Shown here piece by piece: positions 1,654 to 24,310 of a stretch of DNA of 64,000 bases (position 1 is its first letter; each line of letters starts with the position of its first letter). This DNA is from an uncultured Gemmatimonadota bacterium (GTDB lineage Bacteria > JAAXHH01). The notes under the pieces are model-generated. The model saw nothing but the letters and a program-made list of their open reading frames with translations, did not search any database and had not been told where the DNA came from. The position numbers and the translations under genes were made by a program. Location of the stretch: assembly GCA_951812955.1 (NCBI GenBank), contig OX638340.1, positions 3,616,001 to 3,680,000 of the forward strand. Direction: 5' to 3'.

Positions 1654-1968
1654 GGCTTGATTGTCTTAAGGAGGTAACGCTGTCGTTCAGATATACGTAA
1701 CTTCCCGAAAAGAACGTTACGGTGTCGACGAAACACCGTGGAATAGCACACGATTGAAGGATTTGATGTATCCTATAAACTGAGTTGACCCCGTTTAGTA
1801 CGTATGAATTTTTGTACAACGAGGAGTGTTCGACACAACTCCAAGAAATGTGAATCTGTCTACAAACTGGTAATCTTGGTTTTATGTGCACCGGGTAAAG
1901 TCAGTCCGCGTGGGTATGACAGCGTTTATCGGAAAGCTCGGTCGTATGAGGATCAAGGAGTTGGCGTG

Positions 1969-2768
1969 ATGGCGAGAGTCCGAAAGTCAACTGCAATTGA
2001 ACGATTGCAGAGGTTGGTTGATGAGGCTTCAGAGCTGGATATGGAGGATGATAGCTCTCAGGAAGTTCAAAAATGGATACAGGACGTTTATACCGCTTTT
2101 ATCAACATATTCGGTGAGGATAGTTCTCAGTTTTCACGACTTCCGCAAAGTCACAAAACAACCCCAAGTGGGGTTCGTGAATACCTGAGATCAATGGTTT
2201 CCTGCGTCGCGTCTAGTCTCGATGAGATCAAGTACTTTCGGGAGGATGAAACAGAAACTGTGAAACAACCCTCAGAACAGGGTGACTTAAAAGCACCAGA
2301 TAAGGATTGTTACGACCAGGGATCGGCGACAAAAAAGTCTTTGTCGTTCATGGTCACGACGAGGCCGTCCTGCAGGCGGTTGCGAGATTTCTAGAAAAGC
2401 TGAAACTCGAACCAGTAATCCTGCACGAACAGGCGAATCAAGGCCGCACGATCATAGAGAAATTTGAGGATCATTCGGATGCGAGTTTTGCCGTGGTTCT
2501 GCTGACACCTGACGACATAGGCGCGGCCGTTACGGATAAGGCCGATCTACGGCACCGAGCTCGTCAGAACGTAATTCTCGAACTCGGATTCTTCATTGGG
2601 AAGTTGGGTCGCAACAGGGTCTGTGCTCTGAAATCGCGTTGTGTCGAAAATCCGTCGGACGTCGATGGGATGGTCTATATCAACCTCGACGAGCCAGATG
2701 CATGGAAGACCGGACTCGTGCGGGAGTTAATGGCAGCTGGTTTCGCCATCGACGCTAACTGGGTTTAG
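1969..2768 (+). pseudogene. TIR-like (COG4271 / CAP12-Pycsar-effector-type) nucleotide-binding protein split into two overlapping frames (1969-2394 and 2307-2768); either frameshifted or -1 recoded
   Basis: ORF1 starts at ATG 1969 with AGGAG 8 nt upstream and encodes a helical N-domain. ORF2 in the -1 frame reads KKVFVVHGHDEAVLQAVARFLEKL...FAVVLLTPDD...RARQNVILELGFFIGKLGRNRVCAL, which is the TIR-like domain pattern. The frames overlap by 88 nt and can be joined at A AAA AAG (2331-2337) to give a protein of about 266 aa. Confidence 0.6.
2331..2337 (+). promoter_or_regulatory. Candidate -1 ribosomal frameshift heptamer A AAA AAG, or an A6 homopolymer indel site
   Basis: In the ORF1 frame the codons are acA AAA AAG. 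An SD-like AGGGA sits at 2318-2322. An imperfect hairpin TTGTCGT-N8-ACGACGA sits at 2341-2362. This layout resembles the E. coli dnaX signal. Confidence 0.3.
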
Positions 2769-2773
2769 CAGCC

Positions 2774-3079
2774 ATGAACGCACAGTTGTCGATTTCCAAA
2801 ACCGAATTGTCAGCCTATTGTAAAAATCATGGCATCCGACGATTAGCAATTTTCGGATCGGTGCTCCGGCCAGATTTTGGCCCGGAGAGCGATATCGACG
2901 TACTGGTCGAGTTCGCACCGAGTCACACTCCCGGTCTGCTGGGCATGGCCGGATTGGAGATTGAACTATCCGAATTGTTTGGCGGTCGGAAGGTGGACCT
3001 GCGGACTCCTGAGGAATTGAGTCGTTATTTTCGACAGAAGGTCATTGACACGGCAGAAGTTCTATATGTGCAGGGATGA
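2774..3079 (+). CDS. mntA: MntA-type minimal nucleotidyltransferase (antitoxin of the HepT/MntA type VII TA)
   Basis: It has the NTase motif LAIFGSVLRPDFGPESDIDVLVEF and is 101 aa long. It starts 5 nt after the TIR-like ORF stop. Confidence 0.8.
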   Translation: MNAQLSISKTELSAYCKNHGIRRLAIFGSVLRPDFGPESDIDVLVEFAPSHTPGLLGMAGLEIELSELFGGRKVDLRTPEELSRYFRQKVIDTAEVLYVQG

Positions 3080-3188
3080 CGAAATCCCATTACAGCACAT
3101 GTTGGACGCCGAGCGGGAGGCAGTGTGTTTTTCACGAGGACACAGTTGGTTGCAGCCGCTAAGTCAAGCCTACCATATCGCGCGTGAA
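3066..3188 (+). pseudogene. hepT: Truncated hepT (DUF86 RNase toxin) remnant, first ~40 codons only
   Basis: The ORF overlaps the mntA stop, as in intact pairs. It reads MCRDDEIPLQHMLDAEREAVCFSRGHS, which resembles HepT N-termini, then stops at 3188. The C-terminal Rx4HxY region is absent, and the vapC 3' end overlaps it. Confidence 0.5.
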
Positions 3189-3550
3189 TAGTAATCCAGG
3201 ATGGTGGTGTCCGAAGTCACGAGCAGGCATTTGTTCAATTTGGCCGTGGCCACGATCGTGCGGTCGACAGGATCCCGGTGATCCCAGTCCAGTTCGAGAT
3301 TCCCAATCCATGTCCGCACGTCCACTGGACGTACTTCAATCCGTTCGGTCCGTTCCAGATTTTATGCGAAGTCCTGAATGGACAGGGGCAACACAAGATC
3401 GGCCTTTTTCACCCTAACGCCGATCTCCCAGATCGAGATCGAACTGATGCACACGCGGTCGGCTTGTGTAATCGTCTGGTCGTCGATTTTGGACAGGCGT
3501 TCGGGATCCAGTGTCCAGAAAACAAGCGCGGACGTATCCAGTACGACCAT
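3170..3550 (-). pseudogene. vapC: PIN-domain toxin VapC interrupted by an in-frame TAA
   Basis: The N-part reads MVVLDTSALVFW...ISSISIWEI. A TAA lies at 3362-3364 (minus strand). The same frame then continues ...DWDHRDPVDRTIVATAKLNKCLLVTSDTTILDYY to a TAG at 3170-3172. Total is 127 codons including both stops. Confidence 0.7.
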
Positions 3551-3780
3551 TACGTTTCATCCCATTCGTCGATTGTCGGTGTGTCGATGTCTCCATGATA
3601 GACGATCTTTCCCCGCAGTCCATCGAAGATCCTGTCAACCGATTGCTTTGGCTTTATGGGTTTTACACTGAGAACTGGACTCCGGTTATGCGTTACGATC
3701 AGATCCTCGCCCGATTCCTCGATTTCTCGAAATACCCGAAGCATATTGGCCTTCAGCTTGCTCTTCGATTTGAACAGCAT
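3550..3780 (-). CDS. Phd/YefM-family antitoxin
   Basis: The 76-aa protein has KANMLRVFREIEESGEDLIVTHNRSPVLSV, typical of Phd/YefM. It has an ATGA-type overlap with the vapC start at 3550. Confidence 0.7.
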   Translation of the reverse strand: MLFKSKSKLKANMLRVFREIEESGEDLIVTHNRSPVLSVKPIKPKQSVDRIFDGLRGKIVYHGDIDTPTIDEWDET

Positions 3781-3950
3781 ATGGACTCCAGTCTGTTTAG
3801 TAAAAGACTATGGGCATGACCCTGGTTATATTCGAAGGATTTCCTATGAACCGTCAAGGATTTATCTCATTCTCGGCAACTTAGAAGTCGGATTCCGTGC
3901 GACTATTCCGACTGTATAGGTATGATGTTCAATTCAATGTGTAAGACAGG

Positions 3951-3979
3951 TTGACAATCGACGTCCCGACGTCTAATAT
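3951..3979 (+). promoter_or_regulatory. Sigma70-like promoter of the methyltransferase gene with two GACGTC palindromes in the spacer; predicts a leaderless mRNA
   Basis: TTGACA (3951-3956), a 17-nt spacer atcGACGTCccGACGTC, then TAATAT (3974-3979). The ATG at 3986 lies 7 nt after the -10 element. Confidence 0.5.
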
Positions 3980-3985
3980 TAAAAT

Positions 3986-5122
3986 ATGGCCACTAACACC
4001 GAAAGATACGCTCCTGGTCGAGTACGAGATGCGATAATCCGGGTGATGAGACTAACGACAGAAGGTTTGTCTGCTAAACAGATCGCAGCGAGAGTTGCAA
4101 AGATAGAGGGCCACATGCCTGAGTCCTCGATCAGGTCTTATCTTCGTCTGAACACTCCAGAGACATTTGTTCGTGAAAGGAGGGGGGTATACCGCCTTAA
4201 GGTAGATCATGACAGCAGTCTGCAACGAACGATGTTCAGGAGTCCACCTTGGCAGGAACCCTTCAAGTTTGGATCGGCTACATTGTTTCATAGTGAATGT
4301 TTGGATTGGCTGGACGCAAGAGATGACCAATCAATCCACGCGATAGTTACCGATCCACCTTACGGTCTGCAGGAATACACAGCGAAAGAGCAGACGAAAC
4401 TCCGAAATAGGAAGGGGGGGATCTGGAGGATTCCTCCTGCATTTGATGGCCACGTTCGTTCGCCGTTACCAAGATTCACTACTTTAACCGATGAACAAAA
4501 ACTTTATCTTCGGGAGTTTTTCTATATCTGGTCTCGTCTACTGATCCCCAAGTTGGTACCTGGCGCCAACGTGGTCGTTGCCTCCAATCCACTACTCTCC
4601 CACATTGTCGCCGGCGCTATAGCGGATTCGGGGCTTGAAAGACGCGGCGACATCGTCAGGCTTGTTATGACTATGCGTGGCGGTGATCGGCCAAAAGCGG
4701 CACATGATGAATTCAAGGACGTCAGTGTGCTCCCCAGATCAATGTGGGAGCCATGGCTGATATTCCGTAGGCCTGTGGAGGGAAGAGTACAGGACAACCT
4801 CAGAAAATGGAAAACGGGAGGGTTTCGACGGCCGACTGGACTCAAGCCATTCGGAGATGTTATTCAATCTTCCCCGACCAGAAAAAATGAGAAGGCGATA
4901 GCACCTCACCCCAGCCTTAAGCCACAATCCTTCTTACGACGCCTCGTGAGGGGTGTTCTTCCACTAGGTGAGGGTATAGTTGTCGATCCCTTTGCCGGCG
5001 CTGGCTCTACTCTCGCGGCCGCTGAAGCAGTTGGGTACGAGTCAATCGGAATAGAAAAGGATTCTCTGTACTTCAATATGGCCAAGGAAGCACTACAGCC
5101 ACTAGCCGAGCTCGAAGTGTAG
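3986..5122 (+). CDS. Beta-class DNA methyltransferase (N6-adenine or N4-cytosine) with an N-terminal winged-helix-like domain
   Basis: Motif IV is IVTDPPYG. Motif I, VVDPFAGAGSTLAAAE, lies near the C-terminus (order IV...I means beta class). The N-terminal ~80 aa, GLSAKQIAARVAKIEG...SIRSYL, look like an HTH. Confidence 0.85.
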   Translation: MATNTERYAPGRVRDAIIRVMRLTTEGLSAKQIAARVAKIEGHMPESSIRSYLRLNTPETFVRERRGVYRLKVDHDSSLQRTMFRSPPWQEPFKFGSATLFHSECLDWLDARDDQSIHAIVTDPPYGLQEYTAKEQTKLRNRKGGIWRIPPAFDGHVRSPLPRFTTLTDEQKLYLREFFYIWSRLLIPKLVPGANVVVASNPLLSHIVAGAIADSGLERRGDIVRLVMTMRGGDRPKAAHDEFKDVSVLPRSMWEPWLIFRRPVEGRVQDNLRKWKTGGFRRPTGLKPFGDVIQSSPTRKNEKAIAPHPSLKPQSFLRRLVRGVLPLGEGIVVDPFAGAGSTLAAAEAVGYESIGIEKDSLYFNMAKEALQPLAELEV

Positions 5123-5141
5123 GGACTGAAGGAATCCTCAA

Positions 5142-5672
5142 TTACCTGTCTAGGTAAATCCAGTTCTCGCGAAGTTTACTCACGCCAAAGCGGTCAAGTG
5201 TGGCAGTTCGTGTGCCGAGTTCCCCTCTCGGATTGCGTCTAAAGTCTTCGATGGTTACCCTAGATAGGTAGACTTCCCTAAACGTCATTGGAAGTCTTGA
5301 TGAAGAGGGTTCGGTTTTGTTATCGACCTCGTATACAAATACACACATCCACTGGTCGCGCGCGCCATGTGTATCGACCGCACCGCCTTTTTTCTTCGTG
5401 GTTTTGATTTCAAGACCCTGATCTCCCGACTTAACGGAGTTTTCTGCGTAAACTCCCTGAACGAGAAGGTCAGGATGGCCATTGAAGTAGTTGTTTTCAG
5501 TAAGCACCCTTGAATGTTTAGCCAGACTGGCCGTCAGCATGTCCGATAGCACACCAGACATGATAGCGGGTCTCAACATATCGTCAAGCCGTTCCAGTCC
5601 GCGGTCTACCAGATGAGAATTGACATCGTGGAAGAAATCATAAACGTCCTGCATTGCCGACTCGAAATCCAT
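5142..5672 (-). CDS. Putative type II restriction endonuclease (PD-(D/E)xK-like)
   Basis: It is convergent with the MTase and 19 nt apart. The candidate catalytic core is GHPDLLVQ...GLEIKTTKKK. Family not recognised. Confidence 0.45.
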   Translation of the reverse strand: MDFESAMQDVYDFFHDVNSHLVDRGLERLDDMLRPAIMSGVLSDMLTASLAKHSRVLTENNYFNGHPDLLVQGVYAENSVKSGDQGLEIKTTKKKGGAVDTHGARDQWMCVFVYEVDNKTEPSSSRLPMTFREVYLSRVTIEDFRRNPRGELGTRTATLDRFGVSKLRENWIYLDR

Positions 5673-5864
5673 AATGCGGAGCTGATATGGTAAAGTCGAG
5701 TCAGGATTGAATGATTCTCTTACTACGACATTTCTGGATTGTTTGATCCGTTCGTCTCCTTCATGTTATCTGAATGCATGTTTCAACAAAATGTGATTTA
5801 CTGTGAATTTGTAAACCACTACCTACAATATCATGACCTAGAATCTCATGAAAGTAAAATCAAT

Positions 5865-7019
5865 CTATTCCTCCACGGCCCGCAGATCCAGCGCCAGGTC
5901 GCGGAAGCTCCGCACGCGGTGTAGGGTGACCAGGTTGGTGTCGTGCTGGTTCTTGCCGCCGCGCGCGGTGCGGGCGACGACGAGTAGATCGTCTCCGGAG
6001 ATGACCTGCGAGGCGTAGCTGAAGGACTCCATAATGCTCCTGCTCATGGCCACGCATCCGGCCTGGAACCAGTTGAGGGCGTCCATGCTGTACATAAGCA
6101 TTAGGATACGCCGCTCGTTTCCCGGCGGTCCGCTGAAACCGATTCGCCGAAGGGGTTCCCGGTCCTGCCACGGGTTCGTGGACAGGGTCACCGTGGTCCA
6201 GTAGAGACCGCCTTTATCGTCGTGGACGATCTGAAACTTGCACTGGGCGCCCGGCATGGGGTGGAACTGGAGGAAACGGTAGTCGAGGTTCCGACCGTCG
6301 TCCTCGACCCGTCCGATTGATGCCAGGCTCGACGTCGTGTGGCCATCGACGATCGTGCGCATGACCATCCGGATCTCGCCGTCCACCAGCACGATGTTGC
6401 CCTCCAGGAAGCTGTCGGCCGGCACCTTGTCCTTCAGGCTTTCGGGATATTTCCGCTGCGAGAGCACATCGGGGATACCAGGAAACCGGACGTGATTGGA
6501 CATGCGCCAGGCCGCCGGATCCAGGAGGTCTCGCGCCAGGTCGCCGGCCACCACCAGCGACTTCCAGTCGAAACGGCTGGGCGCGTCGCAGGTCTCGAAG
6601 GCGCGGTAGGCATGCCCGTTGTGGATCAATACCGGCGTCGGTGCGCAGTGGTGCTTCCCTTCGAAGAGCGTGACCGGCCCTTCCCAGGTGAAGCCGCCGT
6701 CCCGGGAGCGGCCGATGACGATGTCCCGGCTTTTGCGCTTGTTTCCGATGAGATAGGCGTCGTCCCCGTAGGCCCAGACGGTCGCCCAGATGAAATCCTG
6801 GCACGACGCGAGGGTCCACGTTGCGCCGTCGTCGTCACTGACCAGTACCTCGGTCTGATCCGGCACGGATTCCTTGAGCGGACTGGGACGGAACCATTCG
6901 TAACTGGCCAGCAGGCGTCCCGAGCGCATCCGCGCGATCGACGGTGAACCGGCGTATACGTTCTCCGGGTCGGGTGACGAGGCCAGTACCTGGTAGTCTT
7001 TGGCGAGCATTCGATTCAT
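5865..7019 (-). CDS. BNR-repeat / sialidase-like beta-propeller protein, no signal peptide
   Basis: It has Asp-box motifs SDDDGATW and SRDGGFTW. The N-terminus is not hydrophobic. Confidence 0.6.
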   Translation of the reverse strand: MNRMLAKDYQVLASSPDPENVYAGSPSIARMRSGRLLASYEWFRPSPLKESVPDQTEVLVSDDDGATWTLASCQDFIWATVWAYGDDAYLIGNKRKSRDIVIGRSRDGGFTWEGPVTLFEGKHHCAPTPVLIHNGHAYRAFETCDAPSRFDWKSLVVAGDLARDLLDPAAWRMSNHVRFPGIPDVLSQRKYPESLKDKVPADSFLEGNIVLVDGEIRMVMRTIVDGHTTSSLASIGRVEDDGRNLDYRFLQFHPMPGAQCKFQIVHDDKGGLYWTTVTLSTNPWQDREPLRRIGFSGPPGNERRILMLMYSMDALNWFQAGCVAMSRSIMESFSYASQVISGDDLLVVARTARGGKNQHDTNLVTLHRVRSFRDLALDLRAVEE

Positions 7020-8485: not shown

Positions 8486-9598
8486 ATGGTCATCGATTCC
8501 CACGCTTACTGTTTTCCTCCGGGAGACGCGAAGGCCGGGTACGCGGACGCAGGTGAACACCTCCGTTGGATACAGGCCGAGCACGCGGTCCACCACCAGC
8601 CGGCCTGGCGGGTCCGTGACCGGGCCGCCGCGTCGTCAGATGCGATCGCTCCCGCTTCGCCCGGGGACTGGTCCACGCTTCCCGACGTGGATTTCCGCGT
8701 CGATCGGACCCATGGCCGGGTGGTGTGGACGATCGACGGCGAAGACTGCACCAAGCAGTTCTACCCGCCCCACCTGCGCAACCTGGAATACACCCCCGAC
8801 GGCCTGATCGCCGAGATGGACTATGCGGGCGTGGACGCCGCCCTGCTCCATACCAATCCCATGCTGAACCGGGACAGCGCGTTTCAGGCCGAATGTATCG
8901 CCGCATTTCCCGACCGGCTGTACTCCATGGCGCCCGTGGAAGAGTGGCGCATCGCGGCGGAACCGGACCGGGTGATCAATGAGATTGAACGGGCCGTGCG
9001 CGTTCGCGGGCTGCACGCCGTCAAGTTCAACGCCACGCTGGCATATCGCGAAAGTGACGAACGCTGGTGCGGTGGCGCCTACCGCCCCTTCTGGGATGCC
9101 GTGGCCACGCTGAAGGTCCCGGTTTTCTTTACCCTGGGCGCCGGACCCGTACTCGGCTACCACAGCGATCTGACGCAGGGCTACTTCAACGAACTCCGCG
9201 TGCTCATGGAATGGATGGACCGGTACCCGGATTCGGTCTGCAGTATCACCCACGGTTTCCCCTGGCGCATGTTTCTCGAAGGCGACCGTCTCGTCTTGCC
9301 TGAGGATCTGTGGAAACCCTACGAGAACCGCAATCTCAGCATGGAAGTCTGCTTTCCCGTGCGCATCGGCGACCTCTTCGACTTTCCCTACAGCGAGGCC
9401 CTACCGGCCCTGGAGGAGTTGGTTGGCCGGATCGGTAGCGACAGGCTGCTGTGGGGCACGGACATGCCCTTCCAGAACAGGTTCTGCACGTATCGGCAGT
9501 CCCGGGACTGGATCGAGAAGTACGCGGGTTTTCTCAGCGAAGCGGACCGTGCCGCGATTATGGGCGGCACCGCCGCGCGAATATTGGGTATTGCGTAG
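8486..9598 (+). CDS. Amidohydrolase-2 (metal-dependent hydrolase/decarboxylase) family protein
   Basis: The N-terminus is VIDSHAYCF and the C-terminus has LLWGTDMPF, matching the pattern of that family. Confidence 0.6.
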   Translation: MVIDSHAYCFPPGDAKAGYADAGEHLRWIQAEHAVHHQPAWRVRDRAAASSDAIAPASPGDWSTLPDVDFRVDRTHGRVVWTIDGEDCTKQFYPPHLRNLEYTPDGLIAEMDYAGVDAALLHTNPMLNRDSAFQAECIAAFPDRLYSMAPVEEWRIAAEPDRVINEIERAVRVRGLHAVKFNATLAYRESDERWCGGAYRPFWDAVATLKVPVFFTLGAGPVLGYHSDLTQGYFNELRVLMEWMDRYPDSVCSITHGFPWRMFLEGDRLVLPEDLWKPYENRNLSMEVCFPVRIGDLFDFPYSEALPALEELVGRIGSDRLLWGTDMPFQNRFCTYRQSRDWIEKYAGFLSEADRAAIMGGTAARILGIA

Positions 9599-9675: not shown

Positions 9676-9723
9676 CCCGGACCTGCACCCGCACCCGGCC
9701 CCGCACCCGGCCCCGAGCCCGCA
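9676..9723. repeat. GC-rich hexamer/dodecamer microsatellite (GCACCC/GGCCCC units) in the leader of the next gene
   Basis: The tract cccggacctgcacccgcacccggccccgcacccggccccgagcccgc is intergenic, 25 nt upstream of the 9748 start. Confidence 0.7.
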
Positions 9724-9747: not shown

Positions 9748-10734
9748 ATGCACGTCGGTACCCAGCAGTTTAGCACGGCGGACGAAGACCTGGAGTATCT
9801 CGCCCGCCACGGCGTCTTCAACAAGAACGAGAATAACATTACCTTCCACAGGGAATATGGATGGGACGTGGAGGAACTGGCGGCCAAGAAGGAGAAGTGC
9901 GCCCGGTTCGGCATCAACATGGAGATGGTGGCCCTGCCTATCGCCCAGTTCAACGTCGACGGCGGCCAGGTGCCCAATTACATGCTGGGGAAATACGAGG
10001 AAGGCGACAAGGAAATCGAACTGGTGTGCAACATGGTGCGCCAGGCCTCGGAAGCGGGCATCCCCGCGATCAAATACTACCTTTGCGAGATGGAGAACCA
10101 GCGCACCGAGAGCGATCCGCCCGGACGCGGAGGTTCGATCTACAGCACCTGGGACCTGGAGAAGGCGAAGGACCGGCCGCCGCGGTACGACGAACCCGTA
10201 ACGGCCGAGATGAATTGGGCCCGCATAACCTACTTCCTTGAACGGGTGATCCCCGTGGCGACCGAGTGCAAAGTCCGCATGGCCTGCCATCCCTGCGATC
10301 CGTGGCTGCCGCCCGGCTATCGCTGCGTGGACCGCGTGCTCGGCGGCTTCGACGGGTTCAAGCAATTCATTGAGATCTGTCCCAGTCCGTACCACGGCAT
10401 GAATCTATGCCTGGGTTGCATGGCTGAGAGTTCGCTCGACCCGCGCAACGAGGTGCCTGACATTATTCGATACCTGGGATCGCGGAACAAGATCTTCCTC
10501 TGCCATTTCCGAAACATCGTGGGCGGGAGGAACAAGTTCCAGGAAGTCTGGCCCGACGAGGGCGTCATGAACATGCACCGCAACATGCAAGCGCTCAAAG
10601 AAGTCGGCTACGATCACATGTGCGTGCCCGATCACGCGCCTGGGCACAAGGATCCGGACAGCTACCGGCAGGCCTTCGCCTACGAGTTCGGCTATATTCA
10701 GGCGATGATCCAGGCGGTGATGGACGAGGGGTAG
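9748..10734 (+). CDS. Mannonate-dehydratase (UxuA)-like / xylose-isomerase-like TIM-barrel protein
   Basis: GGAGG lies 6 nt upstream. The blocks IFLCHFRNIVG...FQEVWPDEGVMNM...LKEVGYDHMCVPDHAP resemble the UxuA C-terminal region. Confidence 0.55.
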   Translation: MHVGTQQFSTADEDLEYLARHGVFNKNENNITFHREYGWDVEELAAKKEKCARFGINMEMVALPIAQFNVDGGQVPNYMLGKYEEGDKEIELVCNMVRQASEAGIPAIKYYLCEMENQRTESDPPGRGGSIYSTWDLEKAKDRPPRYDEPVTAEMNWARITYFLERVIPVATECKVRMACHPCDPWLPPGYRCVDRVLGGFDGFKQFIEICPSPYHGMNLCLGCMAESSLDPRNEVPDIIRYLGSRNKIFLCHFRNIVGGRNKFQEVWPDEGVMNMHRNMQALKEVGYDHMCVPDHAPGHKDPDSYRQAFAYEFGYIQAMIQAVMDEG

Positions 10735-20452: not shown

Positions 20453-20863
20453 ATGAGCTCAGTACCGGAACCGGATCAAGAGGAAGATCTTATGGGGAAA
20501 ATCATGAATGATTCCGCGAGCGTATCCGTTTTCGAGGTCGTTGGCAACGCTCTTTGCGTTGCTTCCGACGACGGCCAGAGAGTACACGACCGACTTTCGA
20601 CTGCATTGAAGGATAGCCGCCATGTGAATCTTTCTTTTCGCAACGTGACATCGCTTACTTCGGCTTTTCTGAACACCGCGGTCGGCCAATTGTATGGAAC
20701 CTTCAGCGAAGATCATATACGTACGCAGTTGAACATCGAAGAAATGTCCCTGGATGATCTGGTGTTACTCGAGCGTGTGGTCGACACAGCGAAGCAATAC
20801 TTCAAAGACCCTCAAAGATTCGAACAAGCGCTTCGTGAGGAAATGGATGACTATGACGACTGA
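20453..20863 (+). CDS. STAS-like domain protein (DUF4325-type)
   Basis: The pattern GQRVHDRLSTALKDSRHVNLSFRNVTSLTSAFLNTAVGQLYG matches what I recall for DUF4325 (x-V-x-LDF-x-GV...SSF). It has an acidic C-terminus. Confidence 0.5.
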   Translation: MSSVPEPDQEEDLMGKIMNDSASVSVFEVVGNALCVASDDGQRVHDRLSTALKDSRHVNLSFRNVTSLTSAFLNTAVGQLYGTFSEDHIRTQLNIEEMSLDDLVLLERVVDTAKQYFKDPQRFEQALREEMDDYDD

Positions 20864-21395
20864 TTCCAAGGCGCTCGCGGTGAATGAACACGAATTCAGT
20901 CGTAGAGATAGGTTGTTTCTTGATACTAATATCTGGTTGTATCTATTCGGTCCGCATAAACCCAAGGCAAGAGCGATCGACACGTATTCAAGTGTGCTTA
21001 AGCGGATTCTGGATGCGGGTAGCAGAATCTATATCGACGTTCTGATCGTTTCAGAGTTCATCAACGCATGCGCCAGGTTGAATTGGCATCTTGCAACAAA
21101 CAGGAAAATTGGTTTCAAAGCATTTCGAAATTCGTCATCTTTCAAATCAGTCGCCAGGTCGGTGTCAAGCGACGCCGCGCGGGTTATGTCCCACTGCTTG
21201 CGTGTGGAAAGTGGATTCTCGGACATGGCCGCGACCGAATTGCTCAATGAATTTGTCACCGGAAAATGCGACTTCAACGATCAAGTTATCATAAGACTCT
21301 GTAAAAAAGAAGAACTAACCCTGATTACACACGACGCCGATTTCAAAGGCGCGGGGATTCCGATTTTGACAGCGAACCATCGTCTTCTGAACTAA
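20847..21395 (+). CDS. PIN-domain nuclease (VapC-like)
   Basis: It overlaps the upstream gene by 17 nt (or 11 nt if it starts at 20853). The acidic triad candidates are LFLDTNIWLYLF, VLIVSEFINA and LITHDADF. Confidence 0.65.
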   Translation: MTMTTDSKALAVNEHEFSRRDRLFLDTNIWLYLFGPHKPKARAIDTYSSVLKRILDAGSRIYIDVLIVSEFINACARLNWHLATNRKIGFKAFRNSSSFKSVARSVSSDAARVMSHCLRVESGFSDMAATELLNEFVTGKCDFNDQVIIRLCKKEELTLITHDADFKGAGIPILTANHRLLN

Positions 21396-21399
21396 TCCC

Positions 21400-22227
21400 A
21401 TGCCCGCCTACCCCCGCTACCTCACCAAAGCTCAATTGGAGCAGTTCTGGTCCGACGGCTACCTGGTTTTGAAAGGCACGCTGGATCAAGAAGTGGTAGA
21501 AAAAGCCCGCGAATTCCTGCTGGACCTGATCCCGCGGGACCTGGTCATCCCGGACCACTACCACGCGAACCACGGCCGGTTCAAGCCCCACCACCCCGAC
21601 GGGAATGGCAGCTTTTTTGAACCTGCGATGCTGCCCCTGATGCAGAACGAAGCACTTTACGGCGCTGCCGTGGATATACTGGAGACAGAATACATCCGGG
21701 TGTGGGACGGTTCGGCGGGGATAACGCTAAGAAACCGCGCCATGGAAGGACGGCTCCAGAACCTCCACCTCGACGCTGTACCGGGAGGGCCCGAAGACCT
21801 GAATGAGGGGTTCCTTCGCACGGGAATAGGTATCGGCGGATGTTATTACCTGAACAAGGTTGAAGGTGAGGGCGGCGGCATCCACGTGGTTCCCGGCGGG
21901 CCGAACCGGGTGAGGGATATCATGCTTAACGAACCGGACGGTCTGACGCGCAACAACGGCTGGGGTCATATCACCGATTTTTCGTCGTCCATGGAGGTAA
22001 CCGGTGATGCCGGCGATTTCGTGCTGATGCATCACCTGATGCCCCACTCGGCCAGCGCCAATCACAACGCCGCGCCACGGATCGCCCAGTTCACCCGTCT
22101 GCAGGCCCTGACGGACGATGACGCCCGCCTCGCTCCGGGTCCCGACCGACCCCTGGACCCCGCAGCGCTTGGCGCCCTGACACCCCTGGGACGCAAACTG
22201 TTCCGCCTGGCCCCGTGGATCGGGTAA
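21400..22227 (+). CDS. PhyH-family dioxygenase (paralog 5)
   Basis: It has LTKAQLEQFWSDGYLVLKG, NLHLDAV (HxD), GGGIHVVPGG and a distal LMPHSASAN. Confidence 0.7.
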   Translation: MPAYPRYLTKAQLEQFWSDGYLVLKGTLDQEVVEKAREFLLDLIPRDLVIPDHYHANHGRFKPHHPDGNGSFFEPAMLPLMQNEALYGAAVDILETEYIRVWDGSAGITLRNRAMEGRLQNLHLDAVPGGPEDLNEGFLRTGIGIGGCYYLNKVEGEGGGIHVVPGGPNRVRDIMLNEPDGLTRNNGWGHITDFSSSMEVTGDAGDFVLMHHLMPHSASANHNAAPRIAQFTRLQALTDDDARLAPGPDRPLDPAALGALTPLGRKLFRLAPWIG

Positions 22228-22242
22228 TTTGTAGTTCCGCAA

Positions 22243-24216
22243 TTGGAACGGACGTACTCCATGTCCTCTGAACCTCCCCGGTCCCGTGGCCCTTCGGCCA
22301 TATCCCTGCGGGCCGGGATCATCGGGCTCGCGCTCTCCGCCGTGGTGGCTTTCTGGGGCCAGTTCGCCGCCGATCACGCCGGTTACAACTATACCACCTA
22401 CGCCCATATCCCCTCGGCGCTGCTGATCCCCTTCCTGATCCTGATCCTGGGTCCCCACGTCCTGCTCAAGAGGCTGGCGCCCGGGTACGCCCTGACGACT
22501 TCCGAGCTGATCGTGATTTTCGTCATGGGCCTGATCGGTTCGATGGTGCCCGACTGGGGCATGACGAGATACCTGGTCTCCCTCATCACGGGGCCCTTCT
22601 ACCATGCGAGTCCCGAGAACCGCTGGGCGGAGACTTTTTTCGAGACCTTGCCCGGGTGGCTCGTGATCAGCGGCAAGACGGACGCGGTACGGGTTTTCTA
22701 CGAAGGCGCCGCGCCGGGTTACCGGATCCCGTGGATGGCCTGGATCTCGCCCCTGCTGTGGTGGATGTCGTGTTTCGCCGCCCTGATGTGGACGGGCGCA
22801 TGCATCGTGGTCATCCTGCGAAAGCAATGGGTCAGCCACGAAAGGCTGCGCTTTCCCCTGGGGGAGGTATCGCTCAACCTGATGGGCGTGGCGAAGGACC
22901 CGAACGAGCCGCCCATGGTCCGCACGACTGCCTTTCGTATCGGCGCCGGCCTGTCGCTGGCCGTCGTGTGCTGGAACATCGCCTCCTACTGGGACATCGT
23001 TACCCCTATCCCCATCATGGGGCCGGACCTGCTGTATCTGAAGGTCCATCCGTCGATACCGGATCTTCCCATCCGGCTGAATGTCTTCGTACTGTGTTTC
23101 GCTTTCTTCATAAACGCCGAGATCCTGTTCAGCCTGTGTTTCTTCCTGCTCTTCACCACGCTGCAGCGGGGGCTGATGAACATGCTCGGGATCACGGCGG
23201 CCACGACCATGTCTCCTACCGGGCTCGTGGGCACCCAGTCCATCGGTGCCCTGATCGCCCTGGTGGTGTGGGGATTGTGGATGGCCCGTCGTCACCTGGC
23301 CGGTGTGGCCCGGCGGGCGTTTCGAAAGGATCCGTCGATCGATGACAGCAGTGAGTTCTTCTCGTACCGGGTGGCGGTTTTCGGATTGATCTTCGGCATG
23401 CTCTACCTGCTGGCATGGCTTTACAGCATCGGCATGTCGCTGCCCGTCAGCCTTGTCCTCCTGGCCGTACTCTTCATCGTCTACATCGGAATGGCCCGGA
23501 TCGTTGCGGAGGCGGGTCTGGTCGCCATGGACCTGCCGGTAACAGCCAACAACTTCACCGGGGGCATTATCGGCGCCGACAACCTGGACCCGTCCTCGAT
23601 CACCGCTATGGGCATGACGAACGCCTTCGCCCGGAACTGGCGGACCTTTACGATGATCGGGCTGTCTCACGCCGCCTACCTGCAGCGCTGGATGGGGCCG
23701 TCCACCCGGCACCTCTTCCTCTGGATCTGCCTGGCCTTCGCCGTCAGTGTCGTAACTTCCCTCTACTACTACATCAGCGCGGGTTATGCAGTCGGCGCCG
23801 ATAATCTGCTGTCCAAGCCCGGCGACCTCGTACCCTTCTTCTACAACACGATCATGACGTGGAACAGCAGCGCAAGCAGTGTCTCGGAACTGGAACTGAT
23901 CTTCTTCGGGAACGGTATCGTCCTGTACATGCTGATGATCCTCGGACGCTTCATGTTTCTCTGGTGGCCGCTGCATCCCATCGGCCTGGTCGCCGTGGCC
24001 GCGGACACCGTGCGGTTCATGTTCCTACCCTTCCTGCTGGCCTGGCTCGTCCAGGTAATCCTGCTGCGCCTGGGTGGAGGAGCCCTTTACCGCAGAGCGC
24101 AGCCCCTGTTTCTCGGCATCCTGGTTGGATATGTCCTTGGGATGGCCCTCTCATTCCTGGTGGACAGCCTGTGGTTTCCGGCCGCACCGCACCAGTTCGA
24201 ATCCTTTATCAACTGA
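22243..24216 (+). CDS. Large polytopic membrane protein of uncharacterised family (paralog A), candidate transporter
   Basis: It is 657 aa with many hydrophobic segments throughout. It shares blocks with 28259-30250: RKQWVSHERLRFPL, WWPLHPIGL and LLRLGGGALYRRAQP. From memory it may be DUF6785/DUF6784-type; not verified. Confidence 0.7.
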   Translation: MERTYSMSSEPPRSRGPSAISLRAGIIGLALSAVVAFWGQFAADHAGYNYTTYAHIPSALLIPFLILILGPHVLLKRLAPGYALTTSELIVIFVMGLIGSMVPDWGMTRYLVSLITGPFYHASPENRWAETFFETLPGWLVISGKTDAVRVFYEGAAPGYRIPWMAWISPLLWWMSCFAALMWTGACIVVILRKQWVSHERLRFPLGEVSLNLMGVAKDPNEPPMVRTTAFRIGAGLSLAVVCWNIASYWDIVTPIPIMGPDLLYLKVHPSIPDLPIRLNVFVLCFAFFINAEILFSLCFFLLFTTLQRGLMNMLGITAATTMSPTGLVGTQSIGALIALVVWGLWMARRHLAGVARRAFRKDPSIDDSSEFFSYRVAVFGLIFGMLYLLAWLYSIGMSLPVSLVLLAVLFIVYIGMARIVAEAGLVAMDLPVTANNFTGGIIGADNLDPSSITAMGMTNAFARNWRTFTMIGLSHAAYLQRWMGPSTRHLFLWICLAFAVSVVTSLYYYISAGYAVGADNLLSKPGDLVPFFYNTIMTWNSSASSVSELELIFFGNGIVLYMLMILGRFMFLWWPLHPIGLVAVAADTVRFMFLPFLLAWLVQVILLRLGGGALYRRAQPLFLGILVGYVLGMALSFLVDSLWFPAAPHQFESFIN

Positions 24217-24310
24217 GTACTACCCTCATAAACTCACCAGAACACAGGATCGCGGAACCGTAAATGAAGCCCTGATATCGAAACCGTAAAAGAACGTCTG
24301 ACGAAAGTTC

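What the first reader, a model, noticed from the sequence alone, without database searches (positions are those of the whole stretch)
1969..2768. TIR-like effector gene split exactly at a dnaX-type A AAA AAG slippery heptamer
Seen:
- ORF1 (1969-2394) encodes a helical N-domain.
- ORF2, in the -1 frame, encodes a full TIR-like domain (VFVVHGHDEA...LLTPDD...ELGFFIGKLGR). Its only possible own start is a TTG at 2307, directly after a stop.
- In the ORF1 frame the overlap contains acA AAA AAG (2331-2337).
- An SD-like AGGGA lies 8 nt upstream (2318-2322).
- A stem TTGTCGT/ACGACGA lies 3 nt downstream (2341-2362).

Established: A AAA AAG with an upstream SD and a downstream hairpin is the E. coli dnaX -1 frameshift signal. 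COG4271-type proteins usually have an N-terminal sensor or helical part fused to the C-terminal TIR-like domain. Such domains act as effectors in Pycsar/CBASS-type defence.

Inference, three possibilities:
(i) Programmed -1 frameshifting gives a short N-domain protein plus a ~266-aa fusion in a set ratio.
(ii) It is a phase-variable or decayed gene with an A6/A7 indel.
(iii) It is a homopolymer sequencing error.
Basis: partly seen in the sequence, partly recalled or inferred. Interest (0 to 1): 0.6.

Follow-up and report, generated by a model that had tools for sequence, protein, structure and literature searches.

The report
One-base deletion splits TIR-like defence gene
The "slippery" frameshift signal is a by-product of a single missing base in a gene that every close relative carries as one uninterrupted reading frame, so this is an ordinary broken (or mis-assembled) gene copy and not an evolved recoding device.

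Summary
ORF1 (1969-2394) and ORF2 (2307-2768, -1 frame) overlap at A AAA AAG (2331-2337), and ORF2 encodes a CAP12/PycTIR-type TIR-like domain.

- 112 of the 120 best protein hits are single polypeptides of about 265-290 aa covering at least 98% of the conceptual fusion.
- Four close relatives (91-99% nucleotide identity, same gene order) read ...GSATKKVFVVHG... in one frame. Their junctions are ACC AAA AAG GTC, ACC AAA AAA GTC (twice) and ACA AAA AAA GTC. The window has AC-A AAA AA-G TC, exactly one base shorter.
- More distant orthologs have no A-run at this position.
- The SD-like AGGGA, the hairpin and TTG 2307 are all present unchanged in an intact allele.
- The hairpin is weak (-9.7 kcal/mol, z -1.4) and starts 1 nt after the heptamer.

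This is the only coding indel in about 12 kb compared with an independent 98%-identical assembly. The adjacent PIN gene carries a shared nonsense codon and HepT is a stub, so the island is decaying.

Best reading: a recent genuine one-base deletion (about 0.5) or an isolated long-read assembly error (about 0.4). Evolved recoding is about 0.03. The intact protein matches PADLOC candidate PDC-S35. Interest is low.

The parts
1955..1960 (+). Shine-Dalgarno AAGGAG of the gene, 8 nt before ATG 1969
   Evidence: Read directly. The N-terminus MARVRK is conserved in orthologs.
1969..2337 (+). 5' part of the gene (codons 1-123): three-helix N-domain plus disordered linker, in ORF1 frame
   Evidence: It is 100% identical to residues 1-123 of the intact 266-aa protein of L084.
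2329..2337 (+). Site of the missing base. Thr-Lys-Lys codons read ACA AAA AAG-TC here; relatives have ACC AAA AAG GTC, ACC AAA AAA GTC or ACA AAA AAA GTC. The A AAA AAG heptamer (2331-2337) results from the loss.
   Evidence: Pairwise alignments with L001, L004, L084/L086 and L085.
2337..2768 (+). 3' part of the gene in the -1 frame: CAP12/PycTIR-type TIR-like domain, stop TAG 2766-2768
   Evidence: PF10137, E 1.3e-39. Closest solved structures are the TIR domains of Cap12 (TIR-STING; 7un8, 9lmq) by fold and by sequence profile, and PycTIR 8jsj by sequence profile only.
2338..2394 (+). Out-of-frame 18-codon tail of ORF1 (SLSFMVTTRPSCRRLRDF) ending at TAG 2392-2394
   Evidence: No homolog carries this tail.
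2307..2309 (+). TTG, the only possible own start of ORF2. AAGGA abuts it with no spacer. The same TTG is present in the intact allele of L084.
2318..2322 (+). SD-like AGGGA (Gln-Gly-Ser codons), 8 nt upstream of the heptamer; identical in intact alleles
2339..2364 (+). Weak 9-bp hairpin within the codons for the conserved FVVHGHDE motif, starting 1 nt after the heptamer
   Evidence: -9.7 kcal/mol, z -1.39. The sequence is identical in the intact L001, L004 and L084 alleles.
2774..3079 (+). Downstream neighbour: MNT-type nucleotidyltransferase (antitoxin-like), intact
   Evidence: Pfam PF18765/PF01909; PADLOC PDC-S09.
3066..3143 (+). 26-codon remnant of a HepT toxin gene
   Evidence: tblastn with the 118-aa HepT of L003: 65% identity over residues 1-26 only.
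3170..3550 (-). PIN-domain (VapC-like) gene with in-frame TAA at codon 63 (3362-3364); L001 has GAA there
   Evidence: The same TAA is present in L004 and L084/L086.

Best explanation
The locus is one gene, not two. It normally encodes a 266-aa protein: a three-helix N-domain, a disordered linker and a C-terminal CAP12/PycTIR-type TIR-like domain. This architecture matches the untested single-gene phage-defence candidate PDC-S35.

In this sequence one base is missing from the Thr-Lys-Lys codons at the end of the linker. Either a C was lost from ACC AAA AAA, or an A was lost from the A7 run of ACA AAA AAA. That loss throws the TIR-like domain into the -1 frame.

The loss automatically leaves ACA AAA AAG, so the dnaX-like heptamer is a by-product of the deletion and not a selected signal.

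Most likely this is a genuine, very recent loss-of-function or strongly hypomorphic allele in a low-GC3 defence/toxin-antitoxin island that is already decaying. Standard decoding would give a 141-aa N-domain fragment. Any full-length protein would come only from adventitious, unselected -1 slippage at the A-run, probably at a low level (inferred).

Shown: the one-base difference, the single-frame orthologs, and the decay of the neighbouring genes. Inferred: that the deletion is biological and not an assembly error, and all expression consequences.
For: Single-frame orthologs:
- 112 of the 120 best protein hits are about 265-290 aa and cover at least 98% of the conceptual fusion.
- The PADLOC PDC-S35 profile is matched end to end (residues 7-264, E 1.9e-80).

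Four syntenic close relatives are uninterrupted and one base longer at the junction:
- L084/L086: 98-99% nucleotide identity, and its protein is 100% identical to the predicted trans-frame product.
- L004, Gemmatimonadetes bacterium APA_bin_41: 98%.
- L085.
- L001: 91%.

The A-run is not conserved:
- More distant orthologs have ACG AAA GTC, AAG AAG GTC, AAC AAG GTT and similar.

Recency:
- The repaired gene differs from L084 by only one synonymous change outside the junction, so there is no further decay and the event is very recent.

Assembly quality:
- Over about 12 kb aligned to L086 this is the only indel inside a coding region, and all 20 other homopolymers of 5 or more bases agree in length.
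- 22 of the 24 runs of 6 or more bases in the window lie inside ORFs; every one except the junction run itself sits in an ORF it does not break, including G7, C7, T7 and T8.
- Coding density is 92%.

Island decay is real:
- The PIN nonsense codon GAA->TAA is shared by three independent assemblies.
- HepT is reduced to 26 codons.
- Island GC3 is about 0.5 against 0.8 for core genes.
Against: - The frameshifted ORF2 protein is recorded on only one contig, a 3.81-Mb contig that is presumably the source of the window. Its size suggests a long-read assembly, and in those the residual errors are homopolymer indels.
- The other five cluster members are intact.
- Another chromosome-scale MAG (L015) shows the same kind of one-base loss in its own A7 run at the same position. 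That fits either a mutational hotspot or a recurrent artefact.
- No reads are available to decide.
Confidence: 0.5

Rival explanations
1. Sequencing or assembly artefact. The real genome carries the intact 266-aa gene, and the consensus dropped one base at the C/A-run boundary (CCAAAAAA or CAAAAAAA).
For: - The exact ORF2 product is known from a single 3,813,436-bp contig, while the other five proteins in its 90% cluster are full length.
- The gene shows no other defect and differs by one synonymous site from an intact allele.
- L015, another chromosome-scale MAG, has the same type of A7->A6 loss.
- From my own knowledge: homopolymer length is the dominant residual error of long-read consensus.
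Against: - No other coding indel in about 12 kb against an independent assembly, and all other homopolymers of 5 or more bases agree.
- Runs of 7 and 8 elsewhere in the window sit in intact ORFs.
- A run of 6-7 is short for a consensus error at the coverage needed to close a 3.8-Mb contig (my own knowledge).
- Neighbouring genes carry real, shared inactivating mutations, so decay is expected here.
Confidence: 0.4
2. Evolved programmed -1 ribosomal frameshifting of the dnaX type. It would produce a fixed ratio of a short N-domain protein and the full-length TIR fusion.
For: - The heptamer A AAA AAG is in the correct phase.
- AGGGA lies 8 nt upstream and a hairpin lies downstream.
- The trans-frame product would be identical to the intact ortholog.
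- The break is at a domain boundary.
Against: - The two-frame arrangement is absent from all close relatives and from 112 of the 120 best homologs.
- The heptamer is not conserved.
- AGGGA, the hairpin and TTG 2307 are unchanged in an intact allele (the AGGGA and hairpin in all four), so they were not selected for shifting.
- The hairpin is no better than shuffled sequence and has a 1-nt spacer.
- There is no Rfam match, including to the DnaX element, even at E 10.
- Core genes use AAG for 67% of Lys codons. This suggests a tRNA-Lys(CUU), which would blunt AAG slipperiness according to PMC5009743.
Confidence: 0.03
3. Genuine on/off phase variation of a costly TIR effector through slipped-strand mispairing in the A-run. 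The window would capture the OFF state. Alternatively, a two-protein arrangement with ORF2 translated on its own from TTG 2307.
For: - The junction is unusually variable among near-identical genomes: four spellings in five genomes.
- L015 has an independent break at the same run.
- From my own knowledge: defence genes are often phase-variable.
Against: - The tract is only 6-7 nt and is interrupted in many relatives.
- Only one of the six proteins in the 90% cluster is the truncated (OFF) form.
- The variation among intact alleles is synonymous substitution, not length change.
- TTG 2307 has no spaced SD and also exists in the intact L084 allele.
- In the motif scan of the fetched loci, 72 of 80 TIR-like domains have at least 100 in-frame codons upstream.
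Confidence: 0.05

Closest known systems
PADLOC phage-defence candidate PDC-S35 (single-gene candidate from the guilt-by-embedding screen, bioRxiv 10.1101/2024.01.29.577857)
   Same: The repaired 266-aa protein matches profile PDLC05005 from end to end (residues 7-264 against profile 4-260 of 264, E 1.9e-80). It sits in an island with toxin-antitoxin and restriction-modification genes.
   Different: PDC systems are untested predictions, so the function is not established. The copy in this window is interrupted by a one-base frameshift.
TIR domains of CBASS Cap12 (TIR-STING; PDB 7un8, 9lmq) and Pycsar PycTIR (PDB 8jsj); Pfam PF10137
   Same: The C-terminal domain belongs to PF10137 (135 bits against a cut-off of 24.7). 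The Cap12 TIR-STING chains are its closest solved structures by fold and by sequence profile; PycTIR 8jsj is matched by sequence profile only.
   Different: - There is no STING, SAVED or cNMP-binding sensor domain. The N-domain is a three-helix bundle with no Pfam match.
- No Pfam match to a cyclase or CD-NTase was found among the ORFs of the first ~8 kb that were scanned, nor among the called genes of the syntenic loci; the FtsX/peptidase and oxidoreductase genes were named only through those loci.
- NCBIfam Cap12 models score 34 bits against a cut-off of 450.
E. coli dnaX -1 programmed frameshift site
   Same: The same heptamer A AAA AAG in the same phase. There is a partial SD-like AGGGA upstream and a hairpin downstream.
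   Different: - Not conserved: orthologs are single-frame.
- The hairpin is weak and has a 1-nt spacer (from my own knowledge, dnaX has a stable stem about 6 nt away).
- All flanking elements pre-exist in intact alleles.
- No Rfam DnaX match.
- The host probably has a second tRNA-Lys (inferred from codon usage).
Indels with compensatory or adventitious frameshifting ('problem' or 'savior' indels; Atkins et al. 2016, PMC5009743)
   Same: A one-base indel inside a homopolymeric run leaves a shift-prone sequence. A small fraction of ribosomes or RNA polymerases could restore the frame there.
   Different: No expression data exist here, and there is no evidence that a low-level product is selected.

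Membership tests
dnaX-type programmed -1 ribosomal frameshift signal | X XXY YYZ slippery heptamer in the zero-frame phase | tested here: met
   ACA AAA AAG in the ORF1 frame, 2331-2337.
dnaX-type programmed -1 ribosomal frameshift signal | Two-frame gene organisation and heptamer conserved among orthologs | tested here: not met
   Four close relatives and 112 of the 120 best homologs are single-frame. The junction codons vary and in most orthologs lack an A-run.
dnaX-type programmed -1 ribosomal frameshift signal | Stable downstream stem-loop or pseudoknot at about 5-8 nt spacing | tested here: not met
   A 9-bp stem with two G-U pairs, -9.7 kcal/mol, z -1.39, starting 1 nt after the heptamer. 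No Rfam hit at E up to 10.
dnaX-type programmed -1 ribosomal frameshift signal | Upstream internal Shine-Dalgarno stimulator | tested here: inconclusive
   AGGGA lies 8 nt upstream. It is the Gln-Gly-Ser coding sequence and is identical in intact alleles.
dnaX-type programmed -1 ribosomal frameshift signal | Host decodes AAA and AAG with a single tRNA-Lys(UUU), the basis of AAG slipperiness | not testable with these tools
   There is no tRNA gene in the window. Core-gene Lys codons are AAG 214 to AAA 106, which hints at a CUU isoacceptor. The principle comes from PMC5009743.
dnaX-type programmed -1 ribosomal frameshift signal | Measured frameshift product | not testable with these tools
   Needs a reporter assay or proteomics.
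Pfam PF10137 CAP12/Pycsar-effector TIR domain | Score above the gathering threshold over the full domain | tested here: met
   135.3 bits against 24.7, profile positions 1-118 of 119, residues 123-241 of the repaired protein.
PADLOC PDC-S35 candidate | Full-length match to the family profile as a single polypeptide | tested here: met
   PDLC05005, E 1.9e-80, residues 7-264.
CBASS Cap12 / Pycsar PycTIR effector | Operon partner cyclase (CD-NTase or PycC) and a nucleotide-sensing domain fused to the TIR | tested here: not met
   - Neighbours (by direct Pfam scan or, for the first and last, by the syntenic loci) are an FtsX/peptidase gene, a cupin, MNT, PIN, a methyltransferase, unknown ORFs and a molybdopterin oxidoreductase.
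- NCBIfam Cap12 scores 34 bits against a cut-off of 450.
- The N-domain is a three-helix bundle with no family match.
Phase-variable contingency gene | Long simple-sequence tract with length-variable ON and OFF alleles in the population | tested here: inconclusive
   The tract is 5-7 A. One OFF protein among the six cluster members, plus an independent OFF allele in L015. No read-level data.

The most novel reading that the evidence does not exclude
The one-base deletion is real, and the resulting A AAA AAG, with the pre-existing SD-like motif and hairpin, supports an appreciable level of -1 slippage. The strain would then make mostly a free N-domain plus a small dose of full-length TIR effector. 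This would be a 'savior indel' that tunes down a potentially self-toxic defence protein. The independent A7->A6 break at the same Lys-Lys position in L015 would then reflect recurrent use of this hotspot.
Probability: 0.06. Interest if true: 0.45.

Novelty: already known. Interest (0 to 1): 0.1.

Why it matters
It matters mainly as a caution for recoding scans. A one-base loss inside Lys-Lys codons (AAA AAA or AAA AAG) automatically creates a textbook A AAA AAG or A AAA AAA heptamer. Lys-rich interdomain linkers put such breaks at domain boundaries, so they mimic a designed two-product gene.

For annotation, 1969-2768 should be treated as one frameshifted gene, either a pseudogene or an assembly error. 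It is a member of the untested PDC-S35 / PF10137 TIR-like candidate defence family.

The locus adds a small data point on the decay of a toxin-antitoxin and defence island in a Gemmatimonadota lineage.

Tried and rejected
- Exact-protein look-ups of ORF1 (141 and 196 aa versions) and ORF2 to locate the source contig and its sample found nothing. The cluster table does show ORF2 on one 3.81-Mb contig.
- Look-ups of two other window proteins, meant to extend the comparison with the related 201-kb scaffold, failed. Re-fetching around the MNT gene with 10-kb flanks worked instead.
- A GC3 frame plot to detect other frameshifts was too noisy to use. I replaced it with a homopolymer/ORF survey and a direct alignment.
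- The suspected second split gene at 20453-21395 is two separate genes, DUF4325 and PIN.
- The 148-aa 'TIR-only' homologs P0060 and P0062 looked like further split alleles. They are gene-caller choices of an internal ATG within intact full-length ORFs.
- The idea that TTG 2307 arose as a compensatory start was rejected, because intact L084 has the same TTG.
- The idea that 'FIGKLGR' upstream (about 1925-1945) is a remnant of a second TIR gene was rejected. The peptide is not conserved in relatives, and the region behaves as a conserved non-coding leader.
- A literature search for PDC-S35 returned nothing. The Rfam scan was empty. There are no tRNA genes in the window.

Full report
**1. The observation**

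Reading the window confirms every stated feature.
- ORF1 starts at ATG 1969, with AAGGAG 8 nt upstream, and ends at TAG 2392-2394.
- ORF2 is open from TTG 2307 to TAG 2766-2768 in the -1 frame. A TAA lies two codons before the TTG.
- ORF1 reads GCG ACA AAA AAG TCT, so A AAA AAG (2331-2337) is in the canonical phase.
- AGGGA is at 2318-2322.
- A stem forms at 2339-2347/2356-2364.

Joined by a -1 shift at the heptamer, the two ORFs give a 266-aa protein. Residues 123-241 of that protein match Pfam PF10137 (CAP12/Pycsar effector TIR domain) at E 1.3e-39, starting at the Val after Lys-Lys.

An AlphaFold2 model built on 57 homologs (mean pLDDT 79.5) shows three N-terminal helices (6-90), a disordered linker (93-119) and the TIR-like fold from residue 121. 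The break is therefore at the very end of the interdomain linker.

**2. What the orthologs show**

A search with the conceptual fusion returned thousands of hits. Among the best 120, 112 are single proteins of about 265-290 aa covering at least 98% of the query.

The closest hit, P0001 (96% identity), reads ...DQGSATKKVFVVHGHDEA... in one frame. That is exactly the predicted trans-frame peptide. Its contig L001 has the same gene order: FtsX/peptidase, cupin, this gene, MNT, PIN. At the junction it has GAC AAAAAAA GTC, which is A7, where the window has A6.

Three still closer relatives were found. All are intact.

| Locus | Source | Identity to window | Junction |
|---|---|---|---|
| L084/L086 | 201-kb ENA scaffold | 98-99% nt; protein 100% identical to the conceptual fusion | ACC AAA AAG GTC |
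| L004 | GTDB representative 'Gemmatimonadetes bacterium APA_bin_41' | 98% | ACC AAA AAA GTC |
| L085 | MKWU01003041.1 | not computed for the gene; 94% over the 1.5-kb overlap, which ends inside the gene | ACC AAA AAA GTC |

The window, GAC AAAAAA GTC, is one base shorter than every one of them. It can be derived by a single deletion from the L004 spelling (loss of C) or from the L001 spelling (loss of A).

More distant orthologs have no A-run here, for example ACG AAA GTC, AAG AAG GTC and AAC AAG GTT. The two 148-aa 'TIR-only' hits are gene-caller choices of an internal ATG inside intact full-length ORFs.

In the 90%-identity cluster, five members are full length. Only the 153-aa ORF2 product is truncated, and it is seen on a single 3.81-Mb contig.

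**3. The supposed stimulators**

The AGGGA, the hairpin sequence and the TTG at 2307 are all present unchanged in an intact allele (the AGGGA and hairpin in all four). They encode Gln-Gly-Ser, the conserved FVVHGHDE motif and Asp-Cys. They cannot have been selected for frameshifting or for independent initiation.

- The hairpin is -9.7 kcal/mol and is indistinguishable from shuffled sequence (z -1.39). It starts 1 nt after the heptamer.
- In a longer context the A-run itself is drawn into an alternative pairing, and z is -1.06.
- Rfam, which should include the DnaX frameshift element (my own knowledge), gives no match even at E 10.
- The TTG has AAGGA directly abutting it, so there is no usable spacing.
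- The high slipperiness of A AAA AAG in E. coli depends on its single tRNA-Lys. About half of bacteria have a second, AAG-cognate tRNA (PMC5009743).
- The window holds no tRNA gene. Its core genes use AAG for two thirds of Lys codons (214 to 106), which suggests a CUU isoacceptor (inference).

**4. Real mutation or assembly error?**

*Evidence that the assembly is generally sound*
- Against L086 (about 12 kb aligned, 97.7% identity), the junction is the only indel inside a coding region. The others are intergenic. All 20 other homopolymers of 5 or more bases agree in length.
- In the whole window, 24 runs of 6 or more bases exist, and 22 lie within ORFs; apart from the junction run itself none breaks its ORF, including runs of 7 and 8.
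- Coding density is 92%.
- A suspected second split at 20.4-21.4 kb is two separate genes.

*Evidence that the island is genuinely decaying*
- The adjacent PIN gene has GAA->TAA at codon 63. The same change is in the window, L004 and L086, so it is real.
- HepT downstream of MNT is reduced to 26 codons.
- The island has GC3 of about 0.5 against about 0.8 for core genes.
- The family's nearly invariant Trp91 is Arg in this clade.

*Evidence pointing toward an artefact*
- The repaired gene differs from L084 by a single synonymous change outside the junction. The event is therefore either extremely recent or not real.
- The only record of the allele is a chromosome-scale contig. From my own knowledge, such contigs typically come from long reads, whose residual errors are homopolymer indels.
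- A second chromosome-scale MAG (L015, 70% protein identity) has an independent one-base loss in its own A7 run (AGC AAA AAA [A]TC) at the same Lys-Lys position. This is compatible with a mutational hotspot or with a recurrent artefact.

I put a genuine deletion at about 0.5, or 0.55 counting a phase-variable reading, and an artefact at about 0.4. Only reads can decide.

**5. What the gene is**

The repaired protein matches PADLOC's PDC-S35 profile end to end (E 1.9e-80). PDC systems are 145 untested phage-defence candidates predicted by genetic embedding (bioRxiv 10.1101/2024.01.29.577857).

The TIR-like domain is closest to the TIR domains of CBASS Cap12 (TIR-STING; 7un8, 9lmq) and Pycsar PycTIR (8jsj). 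The protein is not a member of those systems:
- It has no nucleotide-sensor domain.
- No Pfam match to a cyclase was found among the scanned nearby ORFs or the called genes of the syntenic loci.
- NCBIfam Cap12 scores 34 bits against a cut-off of 450.

By analogy, the intact protein is probably an NAD+-consuming abortive-infection effector whose helical N-domain controls assembly or activation (inference).

In this window, standard decoding would yield only a 141-aa N-domain fragment with an 18-residue nonsense tail. Any full-length product would arise from unselected slippage at the A-run. That is the 'compensatory/adventitious' class described by Atkins et al..

**6. Verdict**

The dnaX-like appearance is a by-product of losing one base inside Thr-Lys-Lys codons at a linker.

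This is an ordinary frameshifted copy, or a mis-assembly, of a catalogued candidate defence gene. Interest is low. The residual novel possibility, a dosage-reducing 'savior' indel read through by slippage, is about 6% likely.

Noticed in passing
window 3170-3550 (-): The PIN-domain (VapC-like) gene has an in-frame TAA at codon 63 (3362-3364), where L001 has GAA (Glu). The same nonsense codon is in L004 and L084/L086, so it is a real, shared pseudogenising mutation. Its 76-aa partner (3550-3780, -) is intact.
   Followed up: yes
window 3066-3143 (+): Only the first 26 codons of a HepT toxin gene remain downstream of the intact MNT gene (2774-3079). L003 has the complete 118-aa HepT. L001 and L084 also lack a called HepT.
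   Followed up: partly
window 3820-5872: A cassette holds a Type II N6/N4 DNA methyltransferase (3986-5122) and an unannotatable 176-aa ORF (5142-5672, -), possibly its endonuclease. It is absent from L001 but present in L002 and L084/L086, so it is an insertion/deletion polymorphism within the island.
   Followed up: partly
window ~1700-5800: This is a low-GC3 island (GC3 about 0.5 against about 0.8 for flanking core genes), probably horizontally acquired. It sits between an FtsX/peptidase M28 gene plus a cupin gene on one side and, on the other, an unannotated 384-aa ORF followed by a molybdopterin oxidoreductase. The atypical composition may explain why gene callers chose an internal ATG (148-aa calls) for intact orthologs in L002 and L003.
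   Followed up: partly
L015 3300-3420 (OZ245326.1): An ortholog at 70% identity, in another chromosome-scale MAG, is broken by an independent one-base loss in its own A7 run (AGC AAA AAA [A]TC) at the same Lys-Lys position. Whether this is a hotspot or a recurrent assembly artefact is unresolved.
   Followed up: partly
window 1860-1968: The roughly 110-nt leader upstream of ATG 1969 is conserved at the nucleotide level. It is near-identical in L084, L004 and L001 and partially conserved in L005 (74% protein identity). One non-coding frame happens to spell FIGKLGR, the motif of the TIR-like domain. That peptide is not conserved in relatives, so it is probably fortuitous. The reason for the leader's conservation (promoter or 5'UTR element?) is unexplained.
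   Followed up: partly
window 2239-2241 (codon 91): Trp91 is nearly invariant in the family (at least 90% of 57 sequences). It is Arg (CGG/CGT) in the window, L004 and L084, but Trp in L001. This may be a sign of relaxed constraint on the N-domain in this clade before the frameshift.
   Followed up: no
window 20453-24263: A second lower-GC3 patch holds a DUF4325 (STAS-like) gene, a PIN-domain gene, and a 749-aa ORF (21727-23976, -) with no Pfam match. It may be another defence or toxin-antitoxin islet.
   Followed up: partly
window 9688-9699: A 12-nt length difference against L086 lies in an intergenic CCCGCA/CCCGGC repeat between the genes at 8486-9598 and 9748-10734.
   Followed up: no
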